From IMG/VR virus record IMGVR_UViG_3300012983_002979: a stretch of DNA of 10,826 bases. One strand, 5' to 3'. Source of the DNA: a virus. Its lineage: Duplodnaviria > Heunggongvirae > Uroviricota > Caudoviricetes. Shown here piece after piece: positions 1 to 10,826 of the stretch (position 1 is its first letter; every line of letters begins with the position of its first letter). The position numbers were made by a program, and so were the translations under genes. The notes under the pieces are model-generated. The model had not been told where the DNA came from. It did no database searches and was given only the letters and a program-made list of their open reading frames with translations.

Positions 1-120
1 GCTAGTTTGTTAGTGGCGTGTCCGTCCGCAGCTGGCAAGCGAATGTAAAGACTGACTAAGCATGTAGTACCGAGGATGTAGGAATTTCGGACGCGGGTTC
101 AACTCCCGCCAGCTCCACCA
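1..120 (+). ncRNA. ssrA: tmRNA (SsrA), 3' terminal 120 nt; gene is truncated by the window start
   Basis: Sequence matches my recollection of the 3' part of E. coli tmRNA, ending in the tRNA-like acceptor arm GGTTCAACTCCCGCCAGCTCCACCA with terminal CCA at 118-120. Recognised from memory, not from a search. Confidence 0.92.
98..120 (+). other. Putative attL core at the ssrA 3' end (island/chromosome junction)
   Basis: An integrase gene lies immediately downstream of the tmRNA 3' end, and a degenerate copy of this segment recurs at 10688-10707. Exact crossover limits cannot be set from one window. Confidence 0.4.
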
Positions 121-303: not shown

Positions 304-1497
304 GTGGCTCGGACAACACGCCCTCTGAGCAACACCGAAGTTCTACGTGCTAAAGCGCTAGATAAGGATCTAACACTGCATGATGGTGATGGGCTTTTTC
401 TGATAGTGAAAACAAACGGTAAAAAACTCTGGCGCTTTCGCTATCAACGACCAACTACAAAAAAAAGAACAATGATAGGGATAGGTGCTTTCCCAGCTAT
501 CTCACTTGCTGATGCTAGAAGGTTAAGGGCGAATTATCTTGCTTTGTTAGCTAATGGCCTAGATCCACAAGTTCAAGCTGAACTTATCGAAGAACAACAA
601 CAGATAGCCATAGACAGTATTTTTTCGACTGTTGCATTCAATTGGTTCCAGCTAAAAAGCAAAAGCGTTACCCCTGATTACGCTAAGGATATATGGCGCT
701 CTCTGGAAAAGGACATATTCCCAGCTATCGGGGAGCTCCCTGTCCAGCAAATCAAAGCCCGGACTCTAGTCGAAGCCCTTGAGCCAATAAAAGCACGTGG
801 GGCTCTTGAAACTGTACGTCGCCTGATACAGCGGATTAACGAGATTATGATTTATGCCGTAAATACTGGTCTGCTCGATGCAAATCCTGCATCAGGCGTC
901 GGGATGGCCTTTGAAAAACCCAAAAAACAAAATATGCGGACGCTGAGACCTGAAGAACTGCCGGAACTAATGCGTTCTTTAGCTATGTCAAACTTATCCG
1001 TTCCCACTCGCTGTCTTATAGAATGGCAACTTCTGACCCTCGTGCGTCCATCAGAGGCATCTGGTGCTCGGTGGGCTGAGCTCGATCTGGATGCAAAGCT
1101 CTGGGTGATTCCAAGCGAGCGGATGAAGGCTAAGCGAGAACATATTGTTCCTTTGTCTCCTCAAGCCTTAGACATTCTTATGGTGATGAAACCAATAAGT
1201 GGGCATCGGACATATATTTTTCCGAGTCGAAACGATCCCCAAAAAGCAATGAATAGCCAAACAGCAAATGCGGCATTAAAACGTATTGGATATGGACAAA
1301 AATTGGTTGCTCATGGTTTGCGTTCTATTGCAAGTACAGCGATGAATGAGGCAGGTTTTAATTCAGATGTTATTGAAACTGCACTTTCTCATGTTGACAA
1401 AGACGAAGTTCGGCGTGCATATAATCGCGCTTTATATCTCGAGCAACGTAAAGAGCTTTTAAATTGGTGGGGATTATTTGTCATGAACTCTAAATAA
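304..1497 (+). CDS. int: Tyrosine site-specific recombinase, P4-type integrase (397 aa, GTG start)
   Basis: ORF 304..1497 with AAGGAG 8 nt upstream. N-terminus (GDGLFLIVKTNGKKLWRFRY) resembles the arm-binding domain of P4-family integrases; C-terminus has HGLRS...RAYNRALYLEQR consistent with the catalytic His/Arg/Tyr region. Location next to the tmRNA 3' end is typical. Confidence 0.9.
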   Translation: MARTTRPLSNTEVLRAKALDKDLTLHDGDGLFLIVKTNGKKLWRFRYQRPTTKKRTMIGIGAFPAISLADARRLRANYLALLANGLDPQVQAELIEEQQQIAIDSIFSTVAFNWFQLKSKSVTPDYAKDIWRSLEKDIFPAIGELPVQQIKARTLVEALEPIKARGALETVRRLIQRINEIMIYAVNTGLLDANPASGVGMAFEKPKKQNMRTLRPEELPELMRSLAMSNLSVPTRCLIEWQLLTLVRPSEASGARWAELDLDAKLWVIPSERMKAKREHIVPLSPQALDILMVMKPISGHRTYIFPSRNDPQKAMNSQTANAALKRIGYGQKLVAHGLRSIASTAMNEAGFNSDVIETALSHVDKDEVRRAYNRALYLEQRKELLNWWGLFVMNSK

Positions 1498-1522
1498 AAG
1501 CTTTTTAATCATCAAAAATTTT

Positions 1523-1546
1523 AAGGCTTTCATTCATGAAAGCCTT
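1523..1546 (-). terminator. Perfect 10-bp-stem hairpin between convergent int and cargo genes; likely terminator for the cargo operon
   Basis: AAGGCTTTCA-ttca-TGAAAGCCTT. On the minus-strand transcript the hairpin is followed by AAAAUUUUU. It overlaps the last codons and stop of cargo gene 2. Confidence 0.45.
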
Positions 1547-2189
1547 CTGTAACAATTATAGGTTCATCTAGCATATATTGTTTTGCAACATATAAAGGAA
1601 AAAAATCTGAGGTATAAAAATTAAAAATATCCCATTGGATATAACACCAAAAAAGAATAACCAAAAGCATCAATGTTATATTTGCCATGGATATATGAAA
1701 ACTCCACAACAAACAAAACAAAAGAGAAAAAATAATCTCAGAGTTAATTATCTTAACTCGAAGATTAGCCTTTTTATCTGATATCTTTTTATCTATCTCC
1801 TTAATAATAAAAAAATCATGGGCATCATTTCGTTTTAACCCCTCATATTTCTCATAAATCCTTAAAATATAGCCATCAAAATCACCAATAAAAACAAGGT
1901 GATTGAAAACTGAAAAGTTTATTTTCTTATGACCATAATTTAAAACCAGAGAAATGATTAGGGCTTGTATTAATTGCAACACTGAAAGCCCTGACAGTAC
2001 TCCCTGTTGAAAATCAAGCACATCCTTAAGGGAAGTTTGATTCATGATATTATATATATCAACATTACCTTTCTGATAAGTCAACATAAAGAAAATTACC
2101 ATGAATAATATCAAAAAACGATGAAGAGGATACTTACAAGTAAGATCCTCAATATATTTCTCTTGGACTTTTTTTGCTAGTTCATCCAT
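1530..2189 (-). CDS. Hypothetical integral membrane protein, ~219 aa, four predicted TM helices (hotspot cargo gene 2)
   Basis: ORF 1530..2222 minus; preferred start is the ATG at 2189-2187 (MDELAKK...), which overlaps the upstream stop as TAATG and has AGGTG 5 nt upstream. Hydrophobic segments FLILFMVIFFMLTY, VLSGLSVLQLIQALIISLVL, IIFSLLFCLLWSF and ITLMLLVILFWCYIQW, with a charged ~60-aa loop between TM2 and TM3. Very AT-rich. Confidence 0.65.
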   Translation of the reverse strand: MDELAKKVQEKYIEDLTCKYPLHRFLILFMVIFFMLTYQKGNVDIYNIMNQTSLKDVLDFQQGVLSGLSVLQLIQALIISLVLNYGHKKINFSVFNHLVFIGDFDGYILRIYEKYEGLKRNDAHDFFIIKEIDKKISDKKANLRVKIINSEIIFSLLFCLLWSFHISMANITLMLLVILFWCYIQWDIFNFYTSDFFPLYVAKQYMLDEPIIVTEGFHE

Positions 2190-3088
2190 TAATACACCTG
2201 TATAAAATATACATCTCCACAATTTGGATCAAAAGCTCCATATTCTATATATGGAGCACCTAAAAACACCATCTCTCTTTCATTCTGAAAATAAGGAAAA
2301 ACCTCTTGAAAATCTTCTTTTGAGGCAAATCTCAGTGTACTTACCGAATTGTTAAAACTGTTTTTCATTTTAGCAGAAAGATATTGCAAATCCATCTCTG
2401 TAACTTTCACTCGATAAATTACAGGGTCACCCAATTTCTTCCTAGTTATAACCCTATGAAAATCATTGGCTTTTGCTCTATTGAACCCAAAAACCTCTGT
2501 GCGATCTGCTGTCAACGATATTTCTAGCGAGCTATCCCCTGAATGATGAGACCTAATAATTGCCAACATTTGATCTATCTCTCTCACAATTGCTCGGTCA
2601 CCATACCGTCGATTAACTGCTGCATCCGGATTTTCCAAAAGTTGCTGATAATCACGAGGTAAAATTTTCTGGCTAGCAATTTGTGCACGTCTAGTCTCTA
2701 CACTTTTACTAATAGTTTCAGCATTTTCAAGACCAGACTGCTGTGCTTCTTTAACTGCATTATTTAGTGCATTTGAAACCCTTTCGACTACTTTTTTTGT
2801 AACATCTTTCTTAGAGAAGAAGTCGATAATATATCCACCTTCTCTAGGGGGCTGTACCAACAGTTCAACATCTTTATAGTAGTCATGATGCATCTTTGCA
2901 TATTTCCAAAGATTACCATGTCTGATGTCAAGATAAGCCCGATCTAAGGCACTTTGCAAATGGCCTAGGCTTTTAGAAAGAGTTCTCAGGGATACTTGGT
3001 GATCAGGTGCAATATCGCCATCAAAATGCAATTCAACAATCGCCACTTCACTTTGCTCCATGTGGAAAAATAAGTCGTTAATGTTCAT
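2189..3088 (-). CDS. Hypothetical protein, 299 aa, no recognisable motif (hotspot cargo gene 1)
   Basis: Long ORF in AT-rich DNA, same orientation as and translationally coupled to the membrane-protein gene. No Walker A, zinc finger or obvious nuclease motif seen by eye. The SD upstream of the ATG at 3088 is weak. Confidence 0.7.
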   Translation of the reverse strand: MNINDLFFHMEQSEVAIVELHFDGDIAPDHQVSLRTLSKSLGHLQSALDRAYLDIRHGNLWKYAKMHHDYYKDVELLVQPPREGGYIIDFFSKKDVTKKVVERVSNALNNAVKEAQQSGLENAETISKSVETRRAQIASQKILPRDYQQLLENPDAAVNRRYGDRAIVREIDQMLAIIRSHHSGDSSLEISLTADRTEVFGFNRAKANDFHRVITRKKLGDPVIYRVKVTEMDLQYLSAKMKNSFNNSVSTLRFASKEDFQEVFPYFQNEREMVFLGAPYIEYGAFDPNCGDVYFIQVY

Positions 3089-3194
3089 ATATTACGTTCA
3101 TATAAAGCACAGATCTACATCTTGAAAATGAATTTTAAAGCTGAATGAGATTTGTGATAATTCTAAAAGACATTTTTATGATACATCGCGCGCA

Positions 3195-3213
3195 GTGCTT
3201 TCCCCGCCTCGCC
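3195..3213. other. cos site: P2/P4-type 19-nt cohesive end (reverse complement of GGCGAGGCGGGGAAAGCAC)
   Basis: 3195-3213 reads GTGCTTTCCCCGCCTCGCC, whose reverse complement matches the P2/P4 cohesive-end sequence as I recall it. Flanked by GC-rich dyad symmetry (3203-3232). Position between int/cargo and psu agrees with P4 organisation. Confidence 0.55.
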
Positions 3214-3314
3214 CGCCCGCTTTGCGGGGCGGTTTTAATGCAGTTGCACTGACACGCTCAGACCGCGCCGGGAATGGTGCGGTCTGCAGAAAATGAGGCA
3301 GGAAAACGCATGCA

Positions 3315-3347
3315 AAGCCATGCACCTTATCGATGCATGGCTTTTTT
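3315..3347 (+). terminator. Rho-independent terminator-like hairpin between cos and the psu stop
   Basis: AAGCCATGCA-ccttatcga-TGCATGGCTT followed by TTTTT on the plus strand. On the minus strand (psu sense) the hairpin is not followed by a U-run, so it would mainly stop rightward transcription. Confidence 0.4.
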
Positions 3348-3377
3348 CAGTAAAAACGGGCGGATTTTCGGGGAATT

Positions 3378-3950
3378 TTACACAGACTGATGTGATGCCA
3401 GTTGCGCACTTTTACGCGAAAAAATCATGTTCTGCGCAGGGGTGAATTTTTCACGGCTGTCATCCACCGAAGCCGCGTCAGGCCTGAATCCGATGGTCGT
3501 TAAAATGTCGCTATCCTGTGCGGAATAATTAATTTTTTCACCCTTCGCAAGCCAGGACAGGAGGGCTTCACGCAGGGCATCTGTGGCACGCTGTATGGCA
3601 CAGTTTCGGGCAATGGCCGTCAGCTCACTGTAGCCCATCAGCTCCGGTGCCAGTGCCGCCGCCAGTGCTGTGCCGTGCTGCTGCATAAAATCATTCAGCC
3701 GGTCGCGGATGCTGATGTGCTGAACGGCTTCATGCGAACGAATATAACGACCGGCGGCCTGATTCACCTGCCATTTTCTGACTTCGATAATATTGCGTAA
3801 TTCGTCCAGGCGACTGACGTTTCTGCCTTCTCCTGACTGAAGCCGCAGATATTCCTGTTCGGCCGCTGCCAGCTCATTTTTGCGTTGCAGCCATGCTGCT
3901 TTGTTATTCTGACAGGTGTCAAAGGCCTGCTGTAAGGCTGTGCTTTCCAT
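3378..3950 (-). CDS. psu: Psu, polarity suppression / capsid decoration protein (190 aa)
   Basis: 190-aa ORF beginning MESTALQQAFDTCQNNKAAW, which I recognise as P4 Psu; length and position (last gene of the psu-delta-sid operon, adjacent to cos) match. Confidence 0.9.
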   Translation of the reverse strand: MESTALQQAFDTCQNNKAAWLQRKNELAAAEQEYLRLQSGEGRNVSRLDELRNIIEVRKWQVNQAAGRYIRSHEAVQHISIRDRLNDFMQQHGTALAAALAPELMGYSELTAIARNCAIQRATDALREALLSWLAKGEKINYSAQDSDILTTIGFRPDAASVDDSREKFTPAQNMIFSRKSAQLASHQSV

Positions 3951-4023
3951 CGTTATCTCTTTCTCATCATGCTGAAGAATAAAAATACGGTGTGCGGCGA
4001 CGGCCGGGGTTAACCGGCAGCCC

Positions 4024-4524
4024 TCATTCCAGACGCAGCGAATATGATTGTGTTTTTAACCGTACTGGCGGCAGTTCCTGTTTTTCATGCAGGCGTTCTG
4101 CCAGTTCGTCCGGTGTGACCGGGCGGACAATGAAGCGGTTGATGGTCTGAAGCGTTTTAAACACCAGACCACAGCCCGGATCCGTGCACACATAAAAACG
4201 TTCGGTGACTTCCTGAGACAGACGCCGCGATGTTCTTGACAGTGCAAGGCCTTTACATCTCCGACAACAATATCCGGTAACAAGCATTCTTTTCGGGCGT
4301 TTCATACTGCCGGAGGCAGAAGTCAGTGAATCGCGGTATCTCTGTTTGCCTGAAATGTATTCCATTCCTGAATCTTTACTGTCAGAGAAAAAGCTTTCAC
4401 TCGCTTCAAATGTCGCAGAGCAATAAATATTCCGGCACTGTGCAATCATTATCTTGGTGCCATCGTCCATGAAATGTGCGCGGCGGGTGTGAGCAACATG
4501 TCCACACGACGGGCAGTAAATCAT
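4024..4524 (-). CDS. delta: Delta, late-gene transcription activator with tandem Ogr-like zinc-finger domains (166 aa)
   Basis: Two Cys-rich Ogr-type halves (CPSCGH...CRNIYC and CCRRCKG...CTDPGC). 166 aa as in P4 Delta. Start overlaps the sid stop as ATGA (4521-4524). Confidence 0.9.
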   Translation of the reverse strand: MIYCPSCGHVAHTRRAHFMDDGTKIMIAQCRNIYCSATFEASESFFSDSKDSGMEYISGKQRYRDSLTSASGSMKRPKRMLVTGYCCRRCKGLALSRTSRRLSQEVTERFYVCTDPGCGLVFKTLQTINRFIVRPVTPDELAERLHEKQELPPVRLKTQSYSLRLE

Positions 4525-5255
4525 GACAGCAGTCCTCTGGCCTTAAGCTCTGCACCCTGCTGGTCTATTTTGTCCTGCCACACCTTGCGCTGTGCCGGTG
4601 TGCCTGCCACCTCATAATCCATGTGCGGGAGTGTTGCCGCTGACAGTCCGGTCAGCCGGAGAACCGGCTCGCCGGTGAGGCTGATTTGCATCTGTTTAAT
4701 TTTCTGTTCCAGCGATGATTTCACCTGCTGCATGACAGCTTTATCGGGTGCGACGTAGCCCTGATGGCCGGTGGTGTTGGCGAGCGGATTTTCCTGTACC
4801 AGGATACTCAGATGCATTGCCCGGACAAGCGCCTCACAGGTTTCATTCAGGGCGTGTTCCAGCTCATGCTCTGCATACAGACTCAGAAGGTGATGATGTG
4901 CCTTCCGGTAGGCGGTGGCCGTGCTGTCACACGCCCCTTTCAGGCGTTCACGTTCGAAATTCAGCACCACGGCCAGATTGTCATATTCCTGTACCAGCTC
5001 CCGGCGTGCCACGCGCTCAATGTGGCGCTGTTTCAGCTCGTCGCTCAGGACACCACCGGCTGCACGAAAGGCCGTGCGCCAGTCGTCAGCGTCGTTTCCG
5101 TCGGCCTGCGCCAGCGCATTTTTTTCCTGCTCTGCCCGTTCAATGGCCGTGACGGTCTCATCCATCAGGCGGGCGTTCTCAAGGTGGGCGGCTCTGGCCT
5201 TTTCCAGTTGTGCCAGTGCGGGTTGCAGATATTCAGGGATGGTGTTGTCAGACAT
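4521..5255 (-). CDS. sid: Sid, external scaffold / capsid size determination protein (244 aa from the ATG at 5255)
   Basis: ORF 4521..5273; the ATG at 5255-5253 has GAGGAG 8 nt upstream and gives 244 aa, the P4 Sid length as I recall it. The track's start at 5273 is a GTG. Coiled-coil-like, Ala/Glu/Leu-rich composition. Confidence 0.85.
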   Translation of the reverse strand: MSDNTIPEYLQPALAQLEKARAAHLENARLMDETVTAIERAEQEKNALAQADGNDADDWRTAFRAAGGVLSDELKQRHIERVARRELVQEYDNLAVVLNFERERLKGACDSTATAYRKAHHHLLSLYAEHELEHALNETCEALVRAMHLSILVQENPLANTTGHQGYVAPDKAVMQQVKSSLEQKIKQMQISLTGEPVLRLTGLSAATLPHMDYEVAGTPAQRKVWQDKIDQQGAELKARGLLS

Positions 5256-5289
5256 TTTCCGGCTCCTCGTCACTTCAGGTTAAGAAAAT

Positions 5290-5345
5290 TGTGACGTACA
5301 CCGGACAACAACACGACGCATTGCAGATGTGCCAGCCCTGACACA
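5290..5345 (-). promoter_or_regulatory. Psid-like late promoter: two TGT-N12-ACA dyads (candidate Delta/Ogr binding sites)
   Basis: TGT(5290-5292)-N12-ACA(5305-5307) and TGT(5328-5330)-N12-ACA(5343-5345), centres ~38 bp apart. Relative to a leftward start near 5281 they would sit near -18 and -55. P2/P4 late promoters are activated through TGT-N12-ACA dyads. Confidence 0.45.
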
Positions 5346-5424
5346 GGAGACTCATCCTCAGACCGGCAAGCCAGGAAAAGGTCGCAGGAAAAACCGGCTT
5401 ACTGTTTGTTTTTTTATATTTTAC

Positions 5425-5528
5425 TGTTCACCTCTGTTCATCATAAGAAAAAAGATAAGTAATACAGTAAGTTAAAGGGTGAACAATCGCAGTAATGACT
5501 GTTCACCGTCTGTTCACCACTGTTCACC
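5425..5528. repeat. Iteron cluster of TGTTCACC octamers; ori-like replication origin
   Basis: TGTTCACC at 5425, 5500, 5511, 5521 (the last three ~10-11 bp apart), a variant TGTTCATC at 5436, and an inverted GGTGAACA at 5478. The same octamer recurs in the crr-like repeats after alpha, ~4.9 kb away. P4 alpha binds TGTTCACC iterons in ori and crr. Confidence 0.5.
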
Positions 5529-5807
5529 CGTTGATGGGCTTTTTGTGCTGTTTACTACTGTTTGTTTTTATTAATTTGCCGGGAATGAATAAGAAAAAAC
5601 GATTTGTATTTCACTATAAAAATTACGAATTGCTTTAAGTGGCTTTAAATGACTTTAAGTGGAGATGAACAAAAAACACACAAGCATTGTAAGGCTGCCG
5701 GAACAAATCCCCCCTGTTGCGTCTGCTGAAAATATTCACAAAATAAAGCGCTACCCGAAGCCGGACGGACTTATCCGGTGCTGTATGGACATTAACGAGG
5801 TAGCCCG

Positions 5808-6074
5808 ATGCAAGCTGTTTTTTCTTCCCCGTCTCCCGCCCCTGTGACGCCACTGATGCCGCTGCCGGACATCACGCAGGAGCGTTTTTTACGTCTGCCG
5901 GAAGTGATGCACCTGTGCGGCCTGTCACGCTCGACCATCTATGAACTCATCCGTAAGGGGGAATTTCCGCCGCAGGTGAGTCTTGGCGGTAAAAATGTGG
6001 CCTGGCTGCACTCTGAAGTCACCGCATGGATGGCCGGCCGCATTGCCGGACGCAAACGGGGGTATGACGCATGA
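5808..6074 (+). CDS. vis: Vis/AlpA-family HTH regulator, excision and late-gene control (88 aa)
   Basis: [50 protein letters not shown] matches the AlpA-type HTH pattern. 88 aa from the ATG at 5808 (GAGG 8 nt upstream); an alternative start at 5856 would give ~72 aa. Confidence 0.75.
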
Positions 6075-6108
6075 TGATGCCCGCTCTGCAAAAAGTCCCT
6101 TTTTCTGG

Positions 6109-6138
6109 CTTGCCTTTTTCCGGCATTTGCGGATATAG
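6109..6138 (+). promoter_or_regulatory. Candidate sigma70 promoter (PLE-like) for the immunity/left operon
   Basis: TTGCCT (6109-6114), 18-bp spacer, TATAGT (6133-6138), ~30 bp upstream of the seqA-like element. Pattern match only. Confidence 0.3.
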
Positions 6139-6329
6139 TTTTTCCGCTGTCGCAAAATCGGCAGCCGGGCGTAGGAACCCGTGTAACTCGAAGGCGACAT
6201 ATGACGCGCCATGCGTCTTTTTTTGTGTCGCAATCAACGCCACAGAGCGCCAGATTATGGTGTGGCGTGTGGTTTGCCGTGCAGGTATGATCCTGTTCGC
6301 AATCGCATGTTATGCCACTGAGTCAATGG

Positions 6330-6400
6330 TAGCTCAGGCGGGGCAGCCTCCGGGCTGGCCGGTATTCTTCGAGGCCGGTATTCCTACCCCCGTCTGGGCT
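6330..6400 (+). ncRNA. cI: CI-like immunity RNA region (seqB-like core); boundaries approximate
   Basis: The central segment 6367-6387 (CTTCGAGGCCGGTATTCCTAC) is complementary to the bipartite GTAGGAA...CTCGAAG(G) motifs at 6171-6194 and 6414-6453, as in P4 seqA/seqB/seqC. RNA ends cannot be set from sequence. Confidence 0.35.
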
Positions 6401-6463
6401 ATCGCCATCGAGCGTAGGAACTCCGGCGATAGCAGTTATTTGCTACTCGAAGGAGACTGCCTT

Positions 6464-6661
6464 ATGGCTACAACCCTTACCCCCTCACACCCTGAATTTG
6501 TCTTTGTGTTTGCGGCTGTCCGTCGCGCAGACCGTCATCCCCGTATCTGCATGCTTCGCACCGTCGCCGGTGATGAACGCAGCGCCCGCCGTTCCCTTGT
6601 CCGTGACTATGTGCTCTCCCTTGCTGCCCGTCTGCCGGTGGTGGAGGTGTCCCGTGCGTAA
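6464..6661 (+). CDS. Small protein (65 aa) in the eta-like position; SD overlapped by the seqC-like element
   Basis: ATG at 6464 preceded by AAGGAG (6450-6455). It is in frame with the 196-aa track ORF, whose upstream part spans the cI region and is unlikely to be coding. Stop overlaps the next gene's start region. Confidence 0.45.
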
Positions 6662-6941
6662 TAAAAAAGCCCCTCAGACCGTCTCAGCGCGTCATGACGC
6701 CCGTGAACACCTCAGCATTGAGGCTTACCATAAGCTCAACCGCGCCAGCGCCGTATCCCAGTTTGTTGGGGGTGATTTGATTCACCGTGAACTCTCCGGC
6801 CTGCATCAGCTCTACATTCCGCATATTTTCAGCTACCTGAATGAAGATATTGATTTTGTGCTGAATGAGCTGAAAGCCAAAGGCCTGTGCCGCGATTTTC
6901 TCGCCCAGCAGAAAGACCGGGGAGACAGGACGCATGTTTGA
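6654..6941 (+). CDS. eps: Epsilon-like protein (helper-prophage derepression), 95 aa from the GTG at 6654
   Basis: Frame of track ORF 6498..6941. GTG at 6654 with GGAGG 6 nt upstream gives 95 aa, the length I recall for P4 epsilon; upstream in-frame ATGs lie inside the preceding small gene. Stop overlaps the orf151 start (ATGTTTGA). Start choice is uncertain. Confidence 0.5.
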
Positions 6942-7389
6942 TTTTCCCCAGCCCGGTGAGATTTACCGTTCTGCCGGTTTTCCCGATGTGGCCGTGGTCG
7001 GCATTCTGGAAGACGGTATTCCGTGGGAAATGCCGTACCGCTGCCCGGAAATTGTCTGGAACCCGTACCGCCGTAAATTCAGTATCCTTGTGCGTATCCT
7101 TGGTGACGGGCGCACCACAGACATCCCGCTGGGGCGTTTTCTGCGGGAATTTACCTGTGACTGTCCTGACCTGTTCAGACGCAGCCCCGTAAACCGGCAT
7201 GCGGTACTGAAAGAAATGGCCGGAGACCCGGAATTACAGAAATGGCGGGAGAAATATCTGGATATTTACCCGCAGGACACTGTTCCGGTCAGCCGGGCGG
7301 CACCGGTGGCGCGGGAATGGCGGGAAATCCCCCGCACGGAGCCTGACCCGGAAATCACACCGGATAACAGTTACCGCAATTATCTGTAA
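6934..7389 (+). CDS. Conserved P4-family protein, orf151-like (151 aa)
   Basis: 151-aa ORF with GGAGACAGGA upstream, coupled to the preceding gene. Length and position between epsilon and alpha match P4 orf151. Confidence 0.8.
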   Translation: MFDFPQPGEIYRSAGFPDVAVVGILEDGIPWEMPYRCPEIVWNPYRRKFSILVRILGDGRTTDIPLGRFLREFTCDCPDLFRRSPVNRHAVLKEMAGDPELQKWREKYLDIYPQDTVPVSRAAPVAREWREIPRTEPDPEITPDNSYRNYL

Positions 7390-7524
7390 TTAAAAAACGA
7401 CACCCGAAAAATTAAATGTGCGTATTCGCGCAGGGATACGCACGTCTTCAGGAGACGCAGATATGCCTTATCAGTTAATGCAACCGGCACGGAATGCAGT
7501 CATCTGTCACAGGGAGGAAAGCAA

Positions 7525-7845
7525 ATGAAAACACCCTTACCGCCCGTCTTACGCGCAGCCCTTTACCGTCGCGCTGTCGCCTGTGCCTGGCTGACCGTGT
7601 GCGAACGTCAGCACCGCTACCCGCATCTCACCCTTGAATCACTGGAGGCGGCCATCGCCGCTGAGCTGGAAGGCTTTTATCTGCGCCAGCACGGTGAGGA
7701 AAAAGGGCGTCAGATAGCCTGTGCCCTGCTGGAAGATTTAATGGAATCCGGCCCCCTGAAGGCCGCGCCGTCGCTGTCCTTTCTCGGGCTGGTTGTGATG
7801 GATGAACTCTGTGCCCGTCACATAAAAGCGCCGGTACTGCACTGA
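7525..7845 (+). CDS. Conserved P4-family hypothetical protein, orf106-like (106 aa)
   Basis: 106-aa ORF with GGGAGG upstream, immediately before alpha. Confidence 0.75.
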
Positions 7846-7859
7846 AGGAGAACAACACC

Positions 7860-10193
7860 ATGAAAATGAACGTAACCGCCACCGTCAGCCATGCGCTCGG
7901 CCACTGGCCGCGTATTCTCCCGGCGCTGGGGATTCAGGTGCTGAAAAACCGTCATCAGCCCTGTCCGGTCTGTGGCGGGAGTGACCGCTTCCGTTTTGAT
8001 GACAGGGAGGGGCGCGGCACCTGGTACTGCAATCAGTGTGGTGCCGGTGACGGCCTGAAACTGGTTGAAAAGGTGTTTGGTGTTTCCCCGTCCGACGCGG
8101 CCGCAAAGGTGGCTGCCGTGACCGGCAGCCTGCCACCGGCTGACCCGGCAGTGACGACCGCCGCCGTTGCTGAAACAGACGCTGCCCGGAAGAGCGCCGC
8201 CGCACTGGCACAAACCCTGATGGCGAAAACCCGTCCCGGAACCGGTAACGCCTACCTGACCCGCAAGGGCTTTCCCGGCCGGGAATGCCGGATGCTGACC
8301 GGCACACTCAGAGCCGGTGGCGTGAGCTGGCGTGCCGGTGACCTTGTGGTGCCACTGTATGACGACAGCGGCGAACTGGTTAACCTTCAGTTAATCAGTG
8401 CTGACGGCCGTAAGCGCACCCTGAAAGGCGGACAGGTCAGGGGCACCTGTCACACCCTTGAAGGACAGAATCAGGCCGGAAAACGTCTGTGGATAGCGGA
8501 GGGATACGCGACCGCACTTACCGTACATCACCTGACCGGTGAAACGGTGATGGTGGCGCTTTCTTCCGTGAACCTCCTTTCTCTGGCCAGCCTTGCCCGG
8601 CAGAAGCATCCGGCCTGTCAGATTGTCCTTGCCGCAGACCGTGACCTCAGCGGTGACGGCCAGAAAAAAGCCGCCGCAGCCGCAGATGCGTGTGAAGGTG
8701 TTGTTGCCCTGCCGCCGGTCTTCGGTGACTGGAATGATGCCTTCACGCAGTACGGCGGGGAGGTCACCCGTAAGGCCATTTACGATGCCATCCGGCCACC
8801 GGCTGAAAGCCCGTTCGACACCATGAGCGAAGCAGAGTTTTCCGCCATGAGTACCAGCGAAAAGGCCATGCGTATCTATGAGCATTACGGCGAGGCGCTC
8901 GCGGTCGATGCCAACGGCCAGCTTCTGTCCCGCTATGAAAATGGTGTCTGGAAGGTGCTGCCGCCACAGGACTTTGCCCGGGATGTGGCCGGGCTGTTTC
9001 AGCGTCTGCGCGCGCCGTTCTCCTCCGGGAAGGTGGCCTCCGTGGTGGACACCCTGAAGCTGATTATTCCGCAGCAGGAAGCCCCCTCCCGCCGCCTGAT
9101 TGGCTTTCGTAACGGTGTGCTCGACACGCAGAACGGCACGTTCCACCCGCACAGTCCGTCACACTGGATGCGCACCCTGTGCGATGTGGATTTCACCCCG
9201 CCGGTGGACGGTGAAACGCTGGAAACCCACGCCCCCGCGTTCTGGCGCTGGCTTGACCGTGCCGCCGGTGGCCGTGCGGAAAAACGCGACGTGATTCTGG
9301 CCGCACTGTTTATGGTGCTGGCAAACCGCTACGACTGGCAGCTCTTTCTGGAGGTGACCGGTCCCGGCGGCAGCGGCAAAAGTATCATGGCCGAAATAGC
9401 CACCCTGCTGGCCGGGGAGGATAACGCCACGTCGGCCACCATCGAGACGCTGGAATCCCCGCGTGAACGTGCCGCGTTAACTGGCTTCTCACTGATACGC
9501 CTGCCGGACCAGGAAAAATGGAGCGGCGACGGTGCCGGACTCAAGGCCATCACCGGCGGCGATGCGGTGTCCGTGGACCCGAAATACCGGGATGCGTACT
9601 CCACGCATATCCCGGCGGTGATTCTGGCCGTGAACAATAACCCGATGCGCTTCACCGACCGCAGCGGCGGCGTGTCACGCCGGCGGGTGATTATTCACTT
9701 CCCGGAACAGATAGCCCCGCAGGAGCGCGACCCGCAGCTTAAGGACAAAATCACCCGCGAGCTGGCGGTCATCGTGCGTCACCTGATGCAGAAATTCAGC
9801 GACCCGATGCTCGCCCGGTCACTGCTTCAGTCCCAGCAGAACTCAGACGAGGCACTGAACATCAAACGGGATGCCGACCCGACGTTTGATTTTATCGGCT
9901 ATCTGGAAACCCTGCCGCAGACCAGCGGCATGTATATGGGGAACGCCAGTATCATCCCGCGTAATTACCGTAAATACCTCTATCACGCCTATCTGGCCTA
10001 CATGGAGGCAAACGGCTACCGGAATGTACTCAGTCTGAAAATGTTCGGGCTGGGGCTGCCGGTGATGCTGAAGGAATACGGACTGAATTACGAGAAGCGC
10101 CATACCAAACAGGGGATACAGACCAACCTGACGCTGAAAGAGGAAAGCTACGGCGACTGGCTGCCAAAATGTGACGACCCTGCAACAACCTGA
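7860..10193 (+). CDS. alpha: Alpha: bifunctional primase-helicase replication protein (777 aa)
   Basis: N-terminal zinc-binding primase motif (CPVCGGSDRFRFDD...WYCNQCG), TOPRIM-like region (LWIAEGYATALT...LAADRD), Walker A (VTGPGGSGKS) in a D5-like helicase domain. 777 aa as in P4 alpha. Confidence 0.95.
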   Translation: MKMNVTATVSHALGHWPRILPALGIQVLKNRHQPCPVCGGSDRFRFDDREGRGTWYCNQCGAGDGLKLVEKVFGVSPSDAAAKVAAVTGSLPPADPAVTTAAVAETDAARKSAAALAQTLMAKTRPGTGNAYLTRKGFPGRECRMLTGTLRAGGVSWRAGDLVVPLYDDSGELVNLQLISADGRKRTLKGGQVRGTCHTLEGQNQAGKRLWIAEGYATALTVHHLTGETVMVALSSVNLLSLASLARQKHPACQIVLAADRDLSGDGQKKAAAAADACEGVVALPPVFGDWNDAFTQYGGEVTRKAIYDAIRPPAESPFDTMSEAEFSAMSTSEKAMRIYEHYGEALAVDANGQLLSRYENGVWKVLPPQDFARDVAGLFQRLRAPFSSGKVASVVDTLKLIIPQQEAPSRRLIGFRNGVLDTQNGTFHPHSPSHWMRTLCDVDFTPPVDGETLETHAPAFWRWLDRAAGGRAEKRDVILAALFMVLANRYDWQLFLEVTGPGGSGKSIMAEIATLLAGEDNATSATIETLESPRERAALTGFSLIRLPDQEKWSGDGAGLKAITGGDAVSVDPKYRDAYSTHIPAVILAVNNNPMRFTDRSGGVSRRRVIIHFPEQIAPQERDPQLKDKITRELAVIVRHLMQKFSDPMLARSLLQSQQNSDEALNIKRDADPTFDFIGYLETLPQTSGMYMGNASIIPRNYRKYLYHAYLAYMEANGYRNVLSLKMFGLGLPVMLKEYGLNYEKRHTKQGIQTNLTLKEESYGDWLPKCDDPATT

Positions 10194-10209
10194 CCATCAT
10201 GACTCATCT

Positions 10210-10234
10210 GACCGGCATCTGCCGGTCTTTTTTT
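10210..10234 (+). terminator. Rho-independent terminator after alpha
   Basis: GACCGGCA-tc-TGCCGGTC followed by TTTTTTT, 17 nt after the alpha stop. Confidence 0.6.
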
Positions 10235-10252
10235 ATCCCTGAATTCCCCGAA

Positions 10253-10554
10253 GGTGAACAATCCACTGTTCACCCTTCACCGTATATTCACCCGTTATCA
10301 CACTGAAATTAAAAGAGAAAAACGAAAGGTGAACAGTGTGAACAATCAAATCAAAAAAAACTTTTTTCTCCCTGTGTGATTTTCAGTACGGGGGATTAAT
10401 CACCGGTATGAGTCACACCGGCAGAATGCCGGAGGTGAAGAATCGAATGTTCACCCTTCACCCATTATTCACCACCTATCCAACTGAAATAAAAGGAGAA
10501 AACAGAAAGGTGAACAGTGTGAACAGTTCTTTCGAAAAAAAATTTTTTTCCTGT
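10253..10554. repeat. crr-like cis replication region: two ~120-bp direct repeats (10253-10375 and 10433-10554) separated by ~57 bp, each with TGTTCACC/GGTGAACA iterons
   Basis: The two units align along their length (GGTGAACAATCCACTGTTCACCCTTCACC...GAAAGGTGAACAGTGTGAACA...CCTGT versus GGTGAAGAATCGAATGTTCACCCTTCACC...GAAAGGTGAACAGTGTGAACA...CCTGT). P4 crr is two 120-bp direct repeats ~60 bp apart carrying the alpha-binding octamer. Confidence 0.6.
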
Positions 10555-10687: not shown

Positions 10688-10707
10688 TTCAAACTCCGCC
10701 AGCCCAC
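10688..10707 (+). other. Degenerate copy of the ssrA 3' end; putative attR or junction with a neighbouring element
   Basis: TTCAAACTCCGCCAGCCCAC versus ssrA TTCAACTCCCGCCAGCTCCAC (99-119). Followed at 10741-10774 by a terminator-like hairpin resembling the one at 154-189. Confidence 0.35.
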
Positions 10708-10740
10708 TTTTTAGTTGTTTGAAGTTCAATGAAGTCTACT

Positions 10741-10774
10741 AAGCCCACACAGCACAAGCTCTGCGGGCTTTTTT
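10741..10774 (+). terminator. Terminator-like hairpin plus T-run, paralogous to the ssrA terminator
   Basis: AAGCCC...GGGCTT then TTTTTT; similar in sequence and layout to 154-189. Confidence 0.35.
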
Positions 10775-10826
10775 ACGTCTATTGTCGTCCAGTGAGAATT
10801 GCTGAGAACTACGAGTTATGGCACCC

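What the first reader, a model, noticed from the sequence alone, without database searches (positions are those of the whole stretch)
1530..3088. Unclassified AT-rich two-gene cargo operon in the int-cos hotspot: candidate novel anti-phage system
Two translationally coupled minus-strand genes lie exactly between the integrase and cos, the position that holds gop-beta-cII in P4 and that is reported to be a variable hotspot for defence systems in P4-like satellites. The DNA is strikingly AT-rich (by eye about one-third G+C) against a >50% G+C core, which argues for recent foreign acquisition. The architecture, a 299-aa soluble protein followed by a 4-TM membrane protein, resembles sensor-plus-membrane-effector abortive infection systems; gene order matches rexA-rexB and is opposite to kwaA-kwaB. 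I see no sequence motif that places either protein in a known family, so this is a candidate new or poorly characterised system.
Basis: partly seen in the sequence, partly recalled or inferred. Interest (0 to 1): 0.85.

Follow-up and report, generated by a model that had tools for sequence, protein, structure and literature searches.

The report
Untested-looking P4 cargo pair, already tested
Two overlapping genes (a soluble protein and a four-helix membrane protein) sit in the defence-gene hotspot of a P4-like phage satellite and look like an antiviral module, but the same pair was catalogued, cloned and challenged with 13 phages in 2022 with no protection reported, so its function is still unproven.

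Summary
Two minus-strand genes (A 2189-3088, 299 aa; B 1530-2189, 219 aa, 4 TM) overlap as TAATG. They fill the variable slot between the integrase and cos (3195-3213) of a P4-like satellite at ssrA. Their G+C is 29-37% against 55% in the P4 core.

The novelty claim does not hold. Rousset et al. 2022 list this pair (WP_024238668 + WP_024238669). They cloned it as pFR87 "HP + 4TMs" and placed it among tested but non-validated systems (8 coliphages plus 5 P2-like phages, native promoter). DefensePredictor (Science 2026) scores A as a predicted novel defence gene (log-odds 4.9) but did not test it.

My additions:
- Neither protein matches any PADLOC model, RexA/RexB-type or KwaA/KwaB.
- A has a DUF7946-like helical N-terminus and a C-terminal OB fold.
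- A is followed by B in 33 of 37 assessable loci, from enterobacteria to cyanobacteria. One clade has an unrelated 2-TM protein (B') instead.
- The module also rides on P2-like phages, an inovirus and integrase islands, and is always AT-rich.
- Both genes are under purifying selection.

The most likely reading is a narrow-range two-component defence module (about 0.5). The function is unproven.

The parts
2189..3088 (-). Gene A. A 299-aa soluble protein (WP_024238668); possibly 290 aa if it starts at Met10 (ATG at 3061). It has a DUF7946-like helical N-terminal region and a C-terminal OB-fold barrel at about residues 217-298.
1530..2189 (-). Gene B. A 219-aa inner-membrane protein (WP_024238669) with 4 TM helices arranged 2+2 around a charged helical segment of about 55 residues. 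Its cytosolic N-terminus is highly conserved (MDELAK..Q.KYIED.T.KYPLHRF).
   Evidence: Hydropathy analysis. Colinear homologs. All-helical AF2 model, pLDDT 82. dN/dS 0.14-0.19.
2187..2191 (-). TAATG junction. The stop codon of A overlaps the start codon of B by one base, the layout of translational coupling.
   Evidence: Sequence. In other loci the gap between the genes ranges from -8 to +6 nt.
3132..3160 (-). Sigma-70-like promoter candidate (TTATCA-17-TAAAAT) upstream of A, inside the variable region.
   Evidence: Consensus scan only; the number of sites found is not above the shuffle expectation. Rousset's pFR87 relied on this native upstream region.
1523..1546 (-). Hairpin spanning the stop codon of B. 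A possible terminator, placed between the convergent B and integrase genes.
   Evidence: Terminator-like scan: 10-bp stem with a weak T run.
1498..3187 (.). Variable cargo slot of the satellite, running from the integrase stop to about 6 nt past cos.
   Evidence: Alignment with the P4 gop locus and a PARIS-carrying satellite diverges right after cos+TGCGCG. P4 homology ends at 3214.
3195..3213 (-). cos cohesive-end sequence GGCGAGGCGGGGAAAGCAC.
   Evidence: One exact match; none expected by chance.
304..1497 (+). Tyrosine integrase of the satellite. It is not the P4 integrase, and the element is integrated at ssrA.
   Evidence: ORF. RefSeq annotation. Not covered by the P4 match.
1..120 (+). 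3' end of ssrA (tmRNA), the attachment-site side of the element.
   Evidence: Rfam RF00023, 99.5 bits. Annotation in L001.

Best explanation
A and B form a two-component accessory module that mobile elements carry in their defence-cargo slots. Most likely it is an anti-phage (or anti-MGE) system with a narrow or unusual target range.

Proposed mechanism, Rex-like in logic: cytosolic A docks on the conserved cytosolic N-terminal helix of the membrane protein B. A recognises an infection cue through its OB-fold barrel and/or its DUF7946-like domain. This switches B, probably as an oligomer, into a state that compromises the inner membrane and aborts the infection.

Shown:
- Gene structure and overlap.
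- Strict A-then-membrane-partner pairing across phyla.
- Purifying selection on both genes.
- Carriage in P4, P2-like, inovirus and integrase-island cargo positions.
- The domain architecture of A and B.

Inferred:
- The defence role itself.
- A-B contact.
- Which partner senses and which executes.
- Membrane damage as the output.

I put about 0.5 on a defence role of any kind and about 0.3 on this specific direction of signalling.
For: - Position: the pair sits exactly in the P4 psu/cos-int hotspot. Published tests of cargo from this hotspot found protection for 7 of 19 systems with 8 phages (PMC9122126). With 28 phages, 6 of 8 randomly chosen unknown loci protected (preprint 10.64898/2026.02.27.708500).
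- Pairing: 33 of 37 assessable loci have B immediately after A. Hosts span gamma-, beta- and delta-proteobacteria and cyanobacteria.
- Partner exchange: one A clade carries an unrelated 2-TM protein B' in the same place (L028, L039, L040). This is typical of sensor/effector modules.
- Other carriers: a P2-like phage between the gpA replication gene and the terminase (L034; L035/36 next to gpA), an inovirus after Zot and secretin (L039), integrase or resolvase islands, and a site downstream of glmS.
- Neighbours include AIPR+SIR2 (L006), a type IV retron, PDC-S05, PDC-M37B, PDC-S31, AriA-like and MADS genes. A NERD+UvrD gene abuts A in L004 and L023.
- The module is AT-rich relative to the host in 20/20 loci.
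- dN/dS is 0.06 for A and 0.14-0.19 for B.
- DefensePredictor gives A log-odds 4.90, above its strict cut-off of 4 (PMC13092281 Table S10).
- A's fold matches three uncharacterised (pro)phage proteins at E 5e-11 to 5e-9.
Against: - Direct test: the same pair (A identical, B one residue different) was cloned with its native promoter. It is listed only among non-validated systems after challenge with 8 coliphages in MG1655 and P2 plus 4 P2-like phages in E. coli C.
- No sequence or fold link ties either protein to any validated defence protein.
- No catalytic motif was recognised.
- A is more conserved than B, the opposite of what is often seen for fast-evolving sensors.
- Many neighbours are housekeeping genes.
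- DefensePredictor uses neighbourhood information, so it is not independent of the hotspot argument. Its overall validation rate was 45%.
- NCBIfam labels the distantly related LAPAL family 'putative phage structural protein'.
Confidence: 0.5

Rival explanations
1. Kiwa/Zorya-like logic with the roles reversed. The membrane protein (B or B') senses phage attachment or DNA injection at the envelope. It then releases or activates A, whose OB fold binds phage nucleic acid and blocks replication or expression. No host killing is needed.
For: - A ends in a canonical OB fold. Its best matches include ssDNA binders: RPA, PriB, SSB and the MCM N-terminal domain.
- The most conserved motif of the family (P.IEYGAFD..GD.YF) lies in the beta4-beta5 region of that barrel.
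- A is the constant, more conserved partner, while the membrane partner is exchanged.
- A NERD+UvrD nuclease-helicase is fused into the operon position upstream of A in two loci.
Against: - The top OB match is a metal chaperone (SilF), and AB5-toxin B subunits score similarly, so the fold does not specify nucleic-acid binding.
- The invariant residues in the barrel are acidic (E282, D292).
- There is no homology to KwaA or KwaB.
- The same negative phage test applies.
Confidence: 0.17
2. The pair is not an antiviral system. It could be an addiction (toxin-antitoxin-like) module or another selfish or accessory cargo that stabilises or benefits the mobile element, for example a membrane-stress, exclusion-of-conjugation or niche-fitness factor. 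It would then sit in hotspots only because these are permissive insertion sites.
For: - No protection was reported against 13 phages.
- No defence-family signature was found.
- Some loci lie among ordinary metabolic genes.
- Copies are inactivated in nature: IS5 in A in E. coli M15, and a split B in Lonsdalea.
- In the gop-beta-cII system of the same slot, gop is toxic without beta, which shows TA-like logic is common here (PMC9122126).
Against: - Strict co-inheritance and strong purifying selection across phyla and across four kinds of mobile element.
- Recurrent proximity to known defence genes.
- High defence scores from an ML predictor.
- A high empirical hit rate for unknown P4-hotspot cargo when larger phage panels are used.
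- pFR87 was clonable without reported toxicity.
Confidence: 0.28
3. A is a phage structural or morphogenetic protein, as the NCBIfam name of the related LAPAL family suggests, and B is a membrane-associated assembly factor.
For: - 33/47 family members weakly hit NF053583 'LAPAL motif-containing putative phage structural protein', and 25/47 hit phrog_3243.
- Structural matches are to phage-encoded proteins.
Against: - The hits cover only the N-terminal ~90 residues and lie far below the 60-bit cut-off.
- PHROG lists these families as 'unknown function'.
- The pair sits in the variable slot of P4, which has no virion genes of its own there.
- It occurs in non-phage chromosomal islands and in an inovirus, a P2-like phage and a satellite, which have unrelated virions.
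- It is absent from most P4-like and P2-like elements: 25 of 5426 E. coli genomes carry it.
Confidence: 0.03

Closest known systems
'HP + 4TMs' P4-hotspot system of Rousset et al. 2022 (plasmid pFR87; entry 30 of Table S1B)
   Same: This is the same system. Protein 1 is identical to the window's A, and protein 2 differs from the window's B by one residue (H vs R). The flanking psu-cos DNA is also the same.
   Different: Nothing material. That study listed it among tested but non-validated systems and did not analyse it further.
Lambda RexA-RexB (abortive infection by membrane depolarisation)
   Same: A two-gene operon with a soluble protein of about 280-300 aa first and a 4-TM membrane protein second. 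It is carried by a temperate mobile element. I propose the same sensor-to-membrane-effector logic.
   Different: - There is no sequence similarity. PADLOC gives 0 hits, and hhalign against a P4-hotspot RexA-like protein and its 4-TM partner gives probability 0.3%.
- B is 219 aa with a long central cytosolic helix, whereas RexB is about 144 aa (my own knowledge).
- No phenotype has been demonstrated.
Kiwa (KwaA 4-TM + KwaB DUF4868)
   Same: A 4-TM protein of about 200 aa paired with a soluble protein of about 300 aa. Kiwa is also found in the P4 hotspot (WYL-Kiwa, pFR79).
   Different: - The gene order is opposite.
- There is no homology: hhalign probability is 0.2-0.3%, and Pfam finds no DUF4868.
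- B's fold gives only generic helical-hairpin matches.
Validated P4-hotspot systems with membrane partners: Hydrolase+3TM and RT-nitrilase+1TM (Rousset 2022)
   Same: Same slot and the same two-gene layout: a cytosolic protein followed by a small TM protein thought to be an abortive-infection effector.
   Different: Their cytosolic proteins have recognisable enzymatic domains (HAD hydrolase; RT-nitrilase), whereas A has none. They protected against T7 or other phages, and this pair did not in the same assay.
DUF7946 (PF25678) / NCBIfam LAPAL_fam (NF053583) / phrog_3243 superfamily
   Same: They share A's N-terminal module of about 90 residues (HFDG...R...Q..DRA). The proteins have similar overall lengths of about 290 aa and are phage-associated.
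   Different: The matches are at or below the curated thresholds and limited to the N-terminus. All of these families are functionally uncharacterised.

Membership tests
P4-like satellite hotspot cargo (Rousset 2022) | Located between psu/cos and the integrase of a P4-like element | tested here: met
   P4 identity of 97.8% up to cos. cos lies at 3195-3213. Sequence diverges right after cos. Integrase at 304-1497, next to ssrA.
P4-like satellite hotspot cargo (Rousset 2022) | Identity with the catalogued system 'HP + 4TMs' (WP_024238668 + WP_024238669) | tested here: met
   The accessions and full protein sequences are found in Tables S1 and S2B of PMC9122126.
Validated anti-phage defence system | Experimentally shown protection against at least one phage | not testable with these tools
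   Published test: pFR87 is listed only in Table S2B ('additional tested systems'), not in S2A ('validated'). The panel was 8 coliphages plus 5 P2-like phages. It was not among the DefensePredictor cloned TUs or the sequences synthesised for the 2026 preprint.
Any known or candidate defence family in PADLOC-DB v2 | HMM match of A or B | tested here: not met
   0 families at E<=1 for both proteins. The B' partner also has none.
RexAB | RexA-homologous soluble component | tested here: not met
RexAB | RexB-type 4-TM partner encoded downstream | tested here: inconclusive
   The topology (4 TM) and gene order agree. There is no sequence similarity to the 4-TM partner of the P4-hotspot RexA-like system, probability 0.3%.
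RexAB | Infection-triggered membrane depolarisation | not testable with these tools
   Needs a physiological assay.
Kiwa | KwaA homolog and KwaB (DUF4868) homolog, in the order kwaA-kwaB | tested here: not met
   hhalign probabilities are 0.2-0.3%. Pfam finds no DUF4868. The gene order is reversed.
OB-fold domain (C-terminus of A) | Five-stranded barrel with a helix between strands 3 and 4, and structural similarity to OB folds | tested here: met
DUF7946 (PF25678) | Score at or above Pfam's gathering threshold (27 bits) | tested here: inconclusive
   The window protein scores 15.5 bits. Relatives score 26.4-27.7 bits over profile positions 1-97 of 183. 20/47 members match at E<0.01.
NCBIfam LAPAL_fam (putative phage structural protein) | Equivalog score of at least 60 bits over the full length | tested here: not met
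   17.5 bits, N-terminal 96 residues only. The best E-value among 33 matching members is 2.8e-6.
DUF6575-containing PD system (Vassallo 2022) | Homology of A to the DUF6575 defence protein | tested here: inconclusive
   The only link is a Foldseek match of A's model to a viral 'DUF6575 domain-containing protein' (E 2.3e-9, TM 0.35-0.41). No Pfam or PADLOC sequence match was found. I could not identify which PD system it is.

The most novel reading that the evidence does not exclude
The pair is the founding example of a widespread defence family that nobody has validated. In this reading the constant cytosolic component, with its DUF7946-like and OB-fold domains, detects single-stranded nucleic acid or a replication or injection intermediate and signals to interchangeable membrane partners (4-TM B or 2-TM B'). 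Its targets, such as ssDNA or filamentous phages, conjative DNA entry or siphoviruses absent from the 2022 panel, were simply not tested. That would explain the negative result.
Probability: 0.12. Interest if true: 0.75.

Novelty: new member of a known kind. Interest (0 to 1): 0.42.

Why it matters
If the pair is a defence system, it adds a family with no similarity to any validated one. Its reach spans enterobacteria to cyanobacteria and four types of mobile element, and its two alternative membrane partners offer a natural experiment on sensor/effector modularity.

It is also a concrete known unknown: a hotspot cargo that scores as defence by context and by machine learning yet failed a first phage panel. 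Resolving it would help calibrate how much of the unexplained P4/P2 hotspot content is truly antiviral and how far small phage panels under-detect it.

For this scan, the main value is a correction. The candidate and the proposed experiment are already in the literature.

Tried and rejected
- PADLOC, Pfam, NCBIfam and PHROGs on both proteins gave no informative family. The only matches were own-family PHROGs 28486 and 31922 (unknown function) and weak N-terminal hits.
- A profile search of PDB sequences gave only coiled-coil-type noise (influenza HA2, E about 0.01), which I rejected.
- The weak STING_TM hit of B (E 0.042, below threshold) was rejected.
- The Foldseek AFDB50 library was unavailable.
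- The exhaustive profile search found 173 clusters, all with the single ~290-aa architecture. There are no domain fusions to borrow function from.
- The 2026 P4/P2 preprint's new systems (Crouga, Bandua, Aernus, Toga, Reve, Hailong) are not this pair, and its DNA is absent from their constructs.
- The DefensePredictor tables of cloned and validated TUs do not contain it.
- A full-text search for the accessions and for DUF7946 found nothing.
- The search for more B relatives with a broad profile timed out twice. B is also too variable to give scan patterns. So I could not test whether B ever pairs with a protein other than A.
- The DUF6575 lead could not be closed because my supplement look-ups were exhausted.
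- The idea that AT-richness shows recent acquisition was rejected. The low G+C is intrinsic to the module in every host.
Full report
**1. The observation**

The window is a P4-like satellite integrated next to ssrA.
- Positions 1-120 are the 3' end of tmRNA (Rfam). An integrase occupies 304-1497(+).
- Positions 3214-10548 are 97.8% identical to phage P4 up to P4's last base. They include psu, delta, sid, the C4/isrK immunity RNAs and the alpha primase.
- The 19-nt cos end lies at 3195-3213(-). Alignment with the P4 gop locus and with a PARIS-carrying satellite shows that similarity stops about 6 nt beyond cos.
- So 1498-3187 is the variable slot.

Two minus-strand genes fill that slot.
- A is 2189-3088 (299 aa). 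B is 1530-2189 (219 aa; the 230-aa TTG ORF listed mechanically is not the RefSeq call).
- They overlap as TAATG.
- G+C is 37.2% for A and 28.6% for B, against 55.3% for the P4 core.
- B has four hydrophobic helices and A has none.
- At this composition a 299-codon ORF is expected with a probability near 1e-9 (my calculation).
- Both genes have homologs across phyla, and dN/dS is 0.06 (A) and 0.14-0.19 (B).

**2. It is already in the literature, and already tested**

RefSeq names the proteins WP_024238668 and WP_024238669, both 'hypothetical'. The pair occurs in 25 of 5426 complete E. coli genomes.

Rousset et al. 2022 (PMC9122126):
- Table S1 lists exactly this pair as 'hypothetical + hypothetical' in P4 hotspot loci. 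One of them is NZ_CP024127, which is my hit H4.
- It is summarised as entry 30, with the number 51 (apparently the number of occurrences) and the comment '4 TM in protein 2'.
- Table S2B lists plasmid pFR87, 'HP + 4TMs', amplified from Escherichia marmotae E1118. The insert includes the native region from the 3' end of psu, on a low-copy pSC101 vector.
- Protein 1 is identical to the window's A. Protein 2 differs from the window's B by one residue.
- The paper states that validated systems are in Table S2A and 'additional tested systems' in S2B.
- All were challenged in MG1655 with lambda, T4, P1, 186cIts, CLB_P2, LF82_P8, AL505_P2 and T7. In E. coli C they were challenged with P2 and four P2-like phages, where only TIR-NLR protected.

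Two caveats come from the same paper. Only the native promoter was used, and PARIS-1 was silent until it was induced.

A 2026 preprint on P4/P2 hotspots found that 6 of 8 random 'unknown' P4 loci protect when 28 phages are used, mostly against siphoviruses. This pair was not among its constructs.

DefensePredictor (PMC13092281) lists WP_024238668.1 in Table S10 as a 'predicted novel defense gene'. Its mean log-odds is 4.90, above the strict cut-off of 4. It is not in the tables of cloned or validated units.

**3. What the proteins are**

Family searches:
- Neither protein matches any PADLOC model at E<=1.
- Pfam, NCBIfam and PHROGs give only own-family PHROGs of unknown function and weak N-terminal hits.

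The A family:
- It is compact. There are 173 clusters at 50% identity among 1.84 billion proteins. All are about 285-297 aa with one architecture and no fusions.
- Invariant residues include R35, Q45, R50, K62, Y162, E170, D172, H211, E282 and D292.

Structure of A:
- The AlphaFold2 model is confident (pLDDT 90.4, pTM 0.83).
- It shows a helical N-terminal region with a small sheet, followed by a C-terminal barrel with beta1-3/helix/beta4-5 topology.
- Nothing in the PDB matches the whole protein.

Wider relatives of A:
- The N-terminal ~90 residues match DUF7946 at about Pfam's threshold in relatives.
- 33/47 members weakly hit NCBIfam LAPAL_fam, and 25/47 hit phrog_3243.
- Foldseek against viral models gives three significant, nearly full-length matches to uncharacterised (pro)phage proteins (E 5e-11 to 5e-9). 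One is annotated DUF6575.
- DUF6575 occurs in one validated PD system of Vassallo et al. 2022. I could not establish any link beyond this, so it stays a lead.

Structure of B:
- It is all-helical (pLDDT 82).
- It has a 2+2 TM layout around a charged helix of about 55 residues.
- Its most conserved part is the cytosolic N-terminus.
- Its fold matches only generic helical hairpins.

**4. The pair is a conserved, mobile module**

Pairing:
- I examined 39 related loci (six contexts from exact-protein look-ups, 23 from species genomes, 9 from IMG/VR). Some are redundant.
- 37 could be assessed. 33 have a B homolog directly after A, with a gap of -8 to +6 nt. In one of these B is split (Lonsdalea).
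- Three have an unrelated ~248-aa 2-TM protein, B', in the same place. One (Desulfobacter) has neither.
- B and B' are unrelated (hhalign probability 0.15%).
- The A proteins paired with B' form their own clade. This points to one partner replacement that was then co-inherited.

Hosts and carriers:
- Hosts include Enterobacterales, Vibrionaceae, Aeromonas, Shewanella, Pseudomonas, Xanthomonas, beta-proteobacteria, Desulfobacter and cyanobacteria.
- Carriers include P4-like satellites and P2-like phages. In the latter, A-B lies next to the gpA replication gene, and in L034 between it and the gpP-type terminase.
- An inovirus carries A-B' right after Zot and secretin.
- Other sites are integrase or resolvase islands and one downstream of glmS.

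Neighbours and composition:
- Neighbours include AIPR+SIR2, a type IV retron, PDC-S05, PDC-M37B, PDC-S31, AriA-like and MADS genes. Many are ordinary housekeeping genes.
- A NERD+UvrD nuclease-helicase ends within 12 nt of A's start in two loci from different A clades.
- In 20/20 loci the pair is 5-30 G+C points below its flanks. Low G+C is therefore intrinsic to the module and does not indicate recent arrival.

**5. How it most likely works**

The best-supported reading is a two-component defence-type module, with probability about 0.5 for any defence role. I estimate this from three things:
- the published hit rates for hotspot cargo;
- a discount for the negative 13-phage test;
- the multi-element carriage, partner exchange and defence-gene neighbours.

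My preferred mechanism (about 0.3) is Rex-like. Cytosolic A docks on B's conserved N-terminal helix, senses an infection cue, and B then compromises the membrane. Only the anatomy is shown. The contact, the trigger and the output are inferred.

A serious rival (about 0.17) inverts the roles, as in Kiwa or Zorya. The membrane protein senses injection, and the OB-fold protein acts on phage nucleic acid. This fits three observations:
- A is the constant and more conserved partner;
- A carries an OB fold;
- a nuclease-helicase is associated with A in two loci.

A non-defence role (addiction or another accessory function) keeps about 0.28, mainly because of the negative test. A structural role is very unlikely (0.03).

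**6. Comparison with known systems**

- The pair resembles RexAB in gene order and topology, and Kiwa in component sizes.
- It is a member of neither. hhalign against P4-hotspot RexA-like, its 4-TM partner, KwaB and KwaA gives probabilities of 0.2-0.3%, and PADLOC gives no hits.
- It shares slot and layout with the validated Hydrolase+3TM and RT-nitrilase+1TM systems, but A has no recognisable enzymatic domain.

**7. Verdict**

- The feature is real and the context call is right.
- The 'novel candidate' label is not. It is a catalogued, once-tested (negative) and ML-flagged known unknown.
- What is new here:
  - the module's breadth;
  - the alternative partner B';
  - the carriage on P2-like phages and an inovirus;
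  - the OB-fold and DUF7946-like anatomy.
- Interest is moderate (0.42). If it is functional, it would be a new member of the known class of two-gene defence modules made of a cytosolic protein plus a membrane protein.

Noticed in passing
L028:10907-11653, L039:6906-7655, L040:6943-7686: A second partner family, B', replaces B downstream of one clade of A proteins. It is about 248 aa, with TM helices near 6-28 and 160-182 flanking a helical domain, and the three copies are 48-53% identical. It shows a weak sub-threshold DUF948 similarity and no PADLOC hit.
   Followed up: partly
L004:4173-5999 and L023:8124-9989: A NERD+UvrD nuclease-helicase ends 1-12 nt before the start of A in two loci whose A proteins belong to different clades. 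It matches PADLOC candidate C3a187 at E 1.7e-165, and the two copies are 50% identical to each other. This may be a three-gene variant of the module.
   Followed up: partly
L039:3325-7655 (IMG/VR contig, 12 kb): A-B' sits directly after Zot and secretin genes, as cargo of a filamentous (inovirus-type) prophage.
   Followed up: partly
L034:1753-11558; L035/L036:5959-10705: A-B relatives (57% and 49% identical) lie next to a P2-type replication gene (Phage_GPA). In L034 they lie between it and a gpP-like terminase, which looks like the P2-like phage variable region. This is notable because the 2026 preprint reports that P4 and P2 almost never share defence genes.
   Followed up: partly
L041:2383-4155 (E. 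coli M15, NZ_CP185789.1): An IS5 transposase has inserted into the 3' part of gene A, leaving a truncated 252-aa CDS, while B is intact. This is a natural knockout of A.
   Followed up: partly
L014:10873-11531 (Lonsdalea britannica): Gene B is split into two ORFs (97 and 82 aa), so it is probably a pseudogene. A is intact and 74% identical to the window's A.
   Followed up: no
window 3061-3088: The start of gene A is ambiguous. RefSeq uses the ATG at 3088 (299 aa), but family members begin about 5 residues before the HFDG motif, which fits Met10 (ATG at 3061, 290 aa). Neither ATG has an obvious Shine-Dalgarno sequence.
   Followed up: partly
window 304-1497 and 1-120: The integrase is not covered by the match to P4, and the element sits at ssrA rather than at P4's tRNA-Leu site (the latter from my own knowledge). 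The satellite therefore combines a near-identical P4 core with a different integration module as well as different cargo.
   Followed up: no
window 10248-10367 and 10429-10548: Two 120-nt direct repeats (81% identical, 181 nt apart) lie at the end of the P4-homologous region. They correspond to the direct repeats annotated as the cis replication region (crr) in P4 record X05623.
   Followed up: no
window 6146-6223 and 6322-6409: Rfam finds isrK (69 bits) and C4 antisense RNA (74 bits), the P4 immunity-region RNAs, both intact.
   Followed up: no
window 10688-10826: The last ~140 nt, beyond the P4 homology, match Escherichia phage phi467 at 96.5%. This may be junction sequence or part of a neighbouring element. 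No repeat of the ssrA 3' end (attR) of 16 nt or more was found inside the window.
   Followed up: no
L008:3671-7415 (Shewanella sp.): The A-B pair lies about 500 nt downstream of glmS, the classical Tn7-type attachment region (my own knowledge). The contig ends inside B.
   Followed up: no
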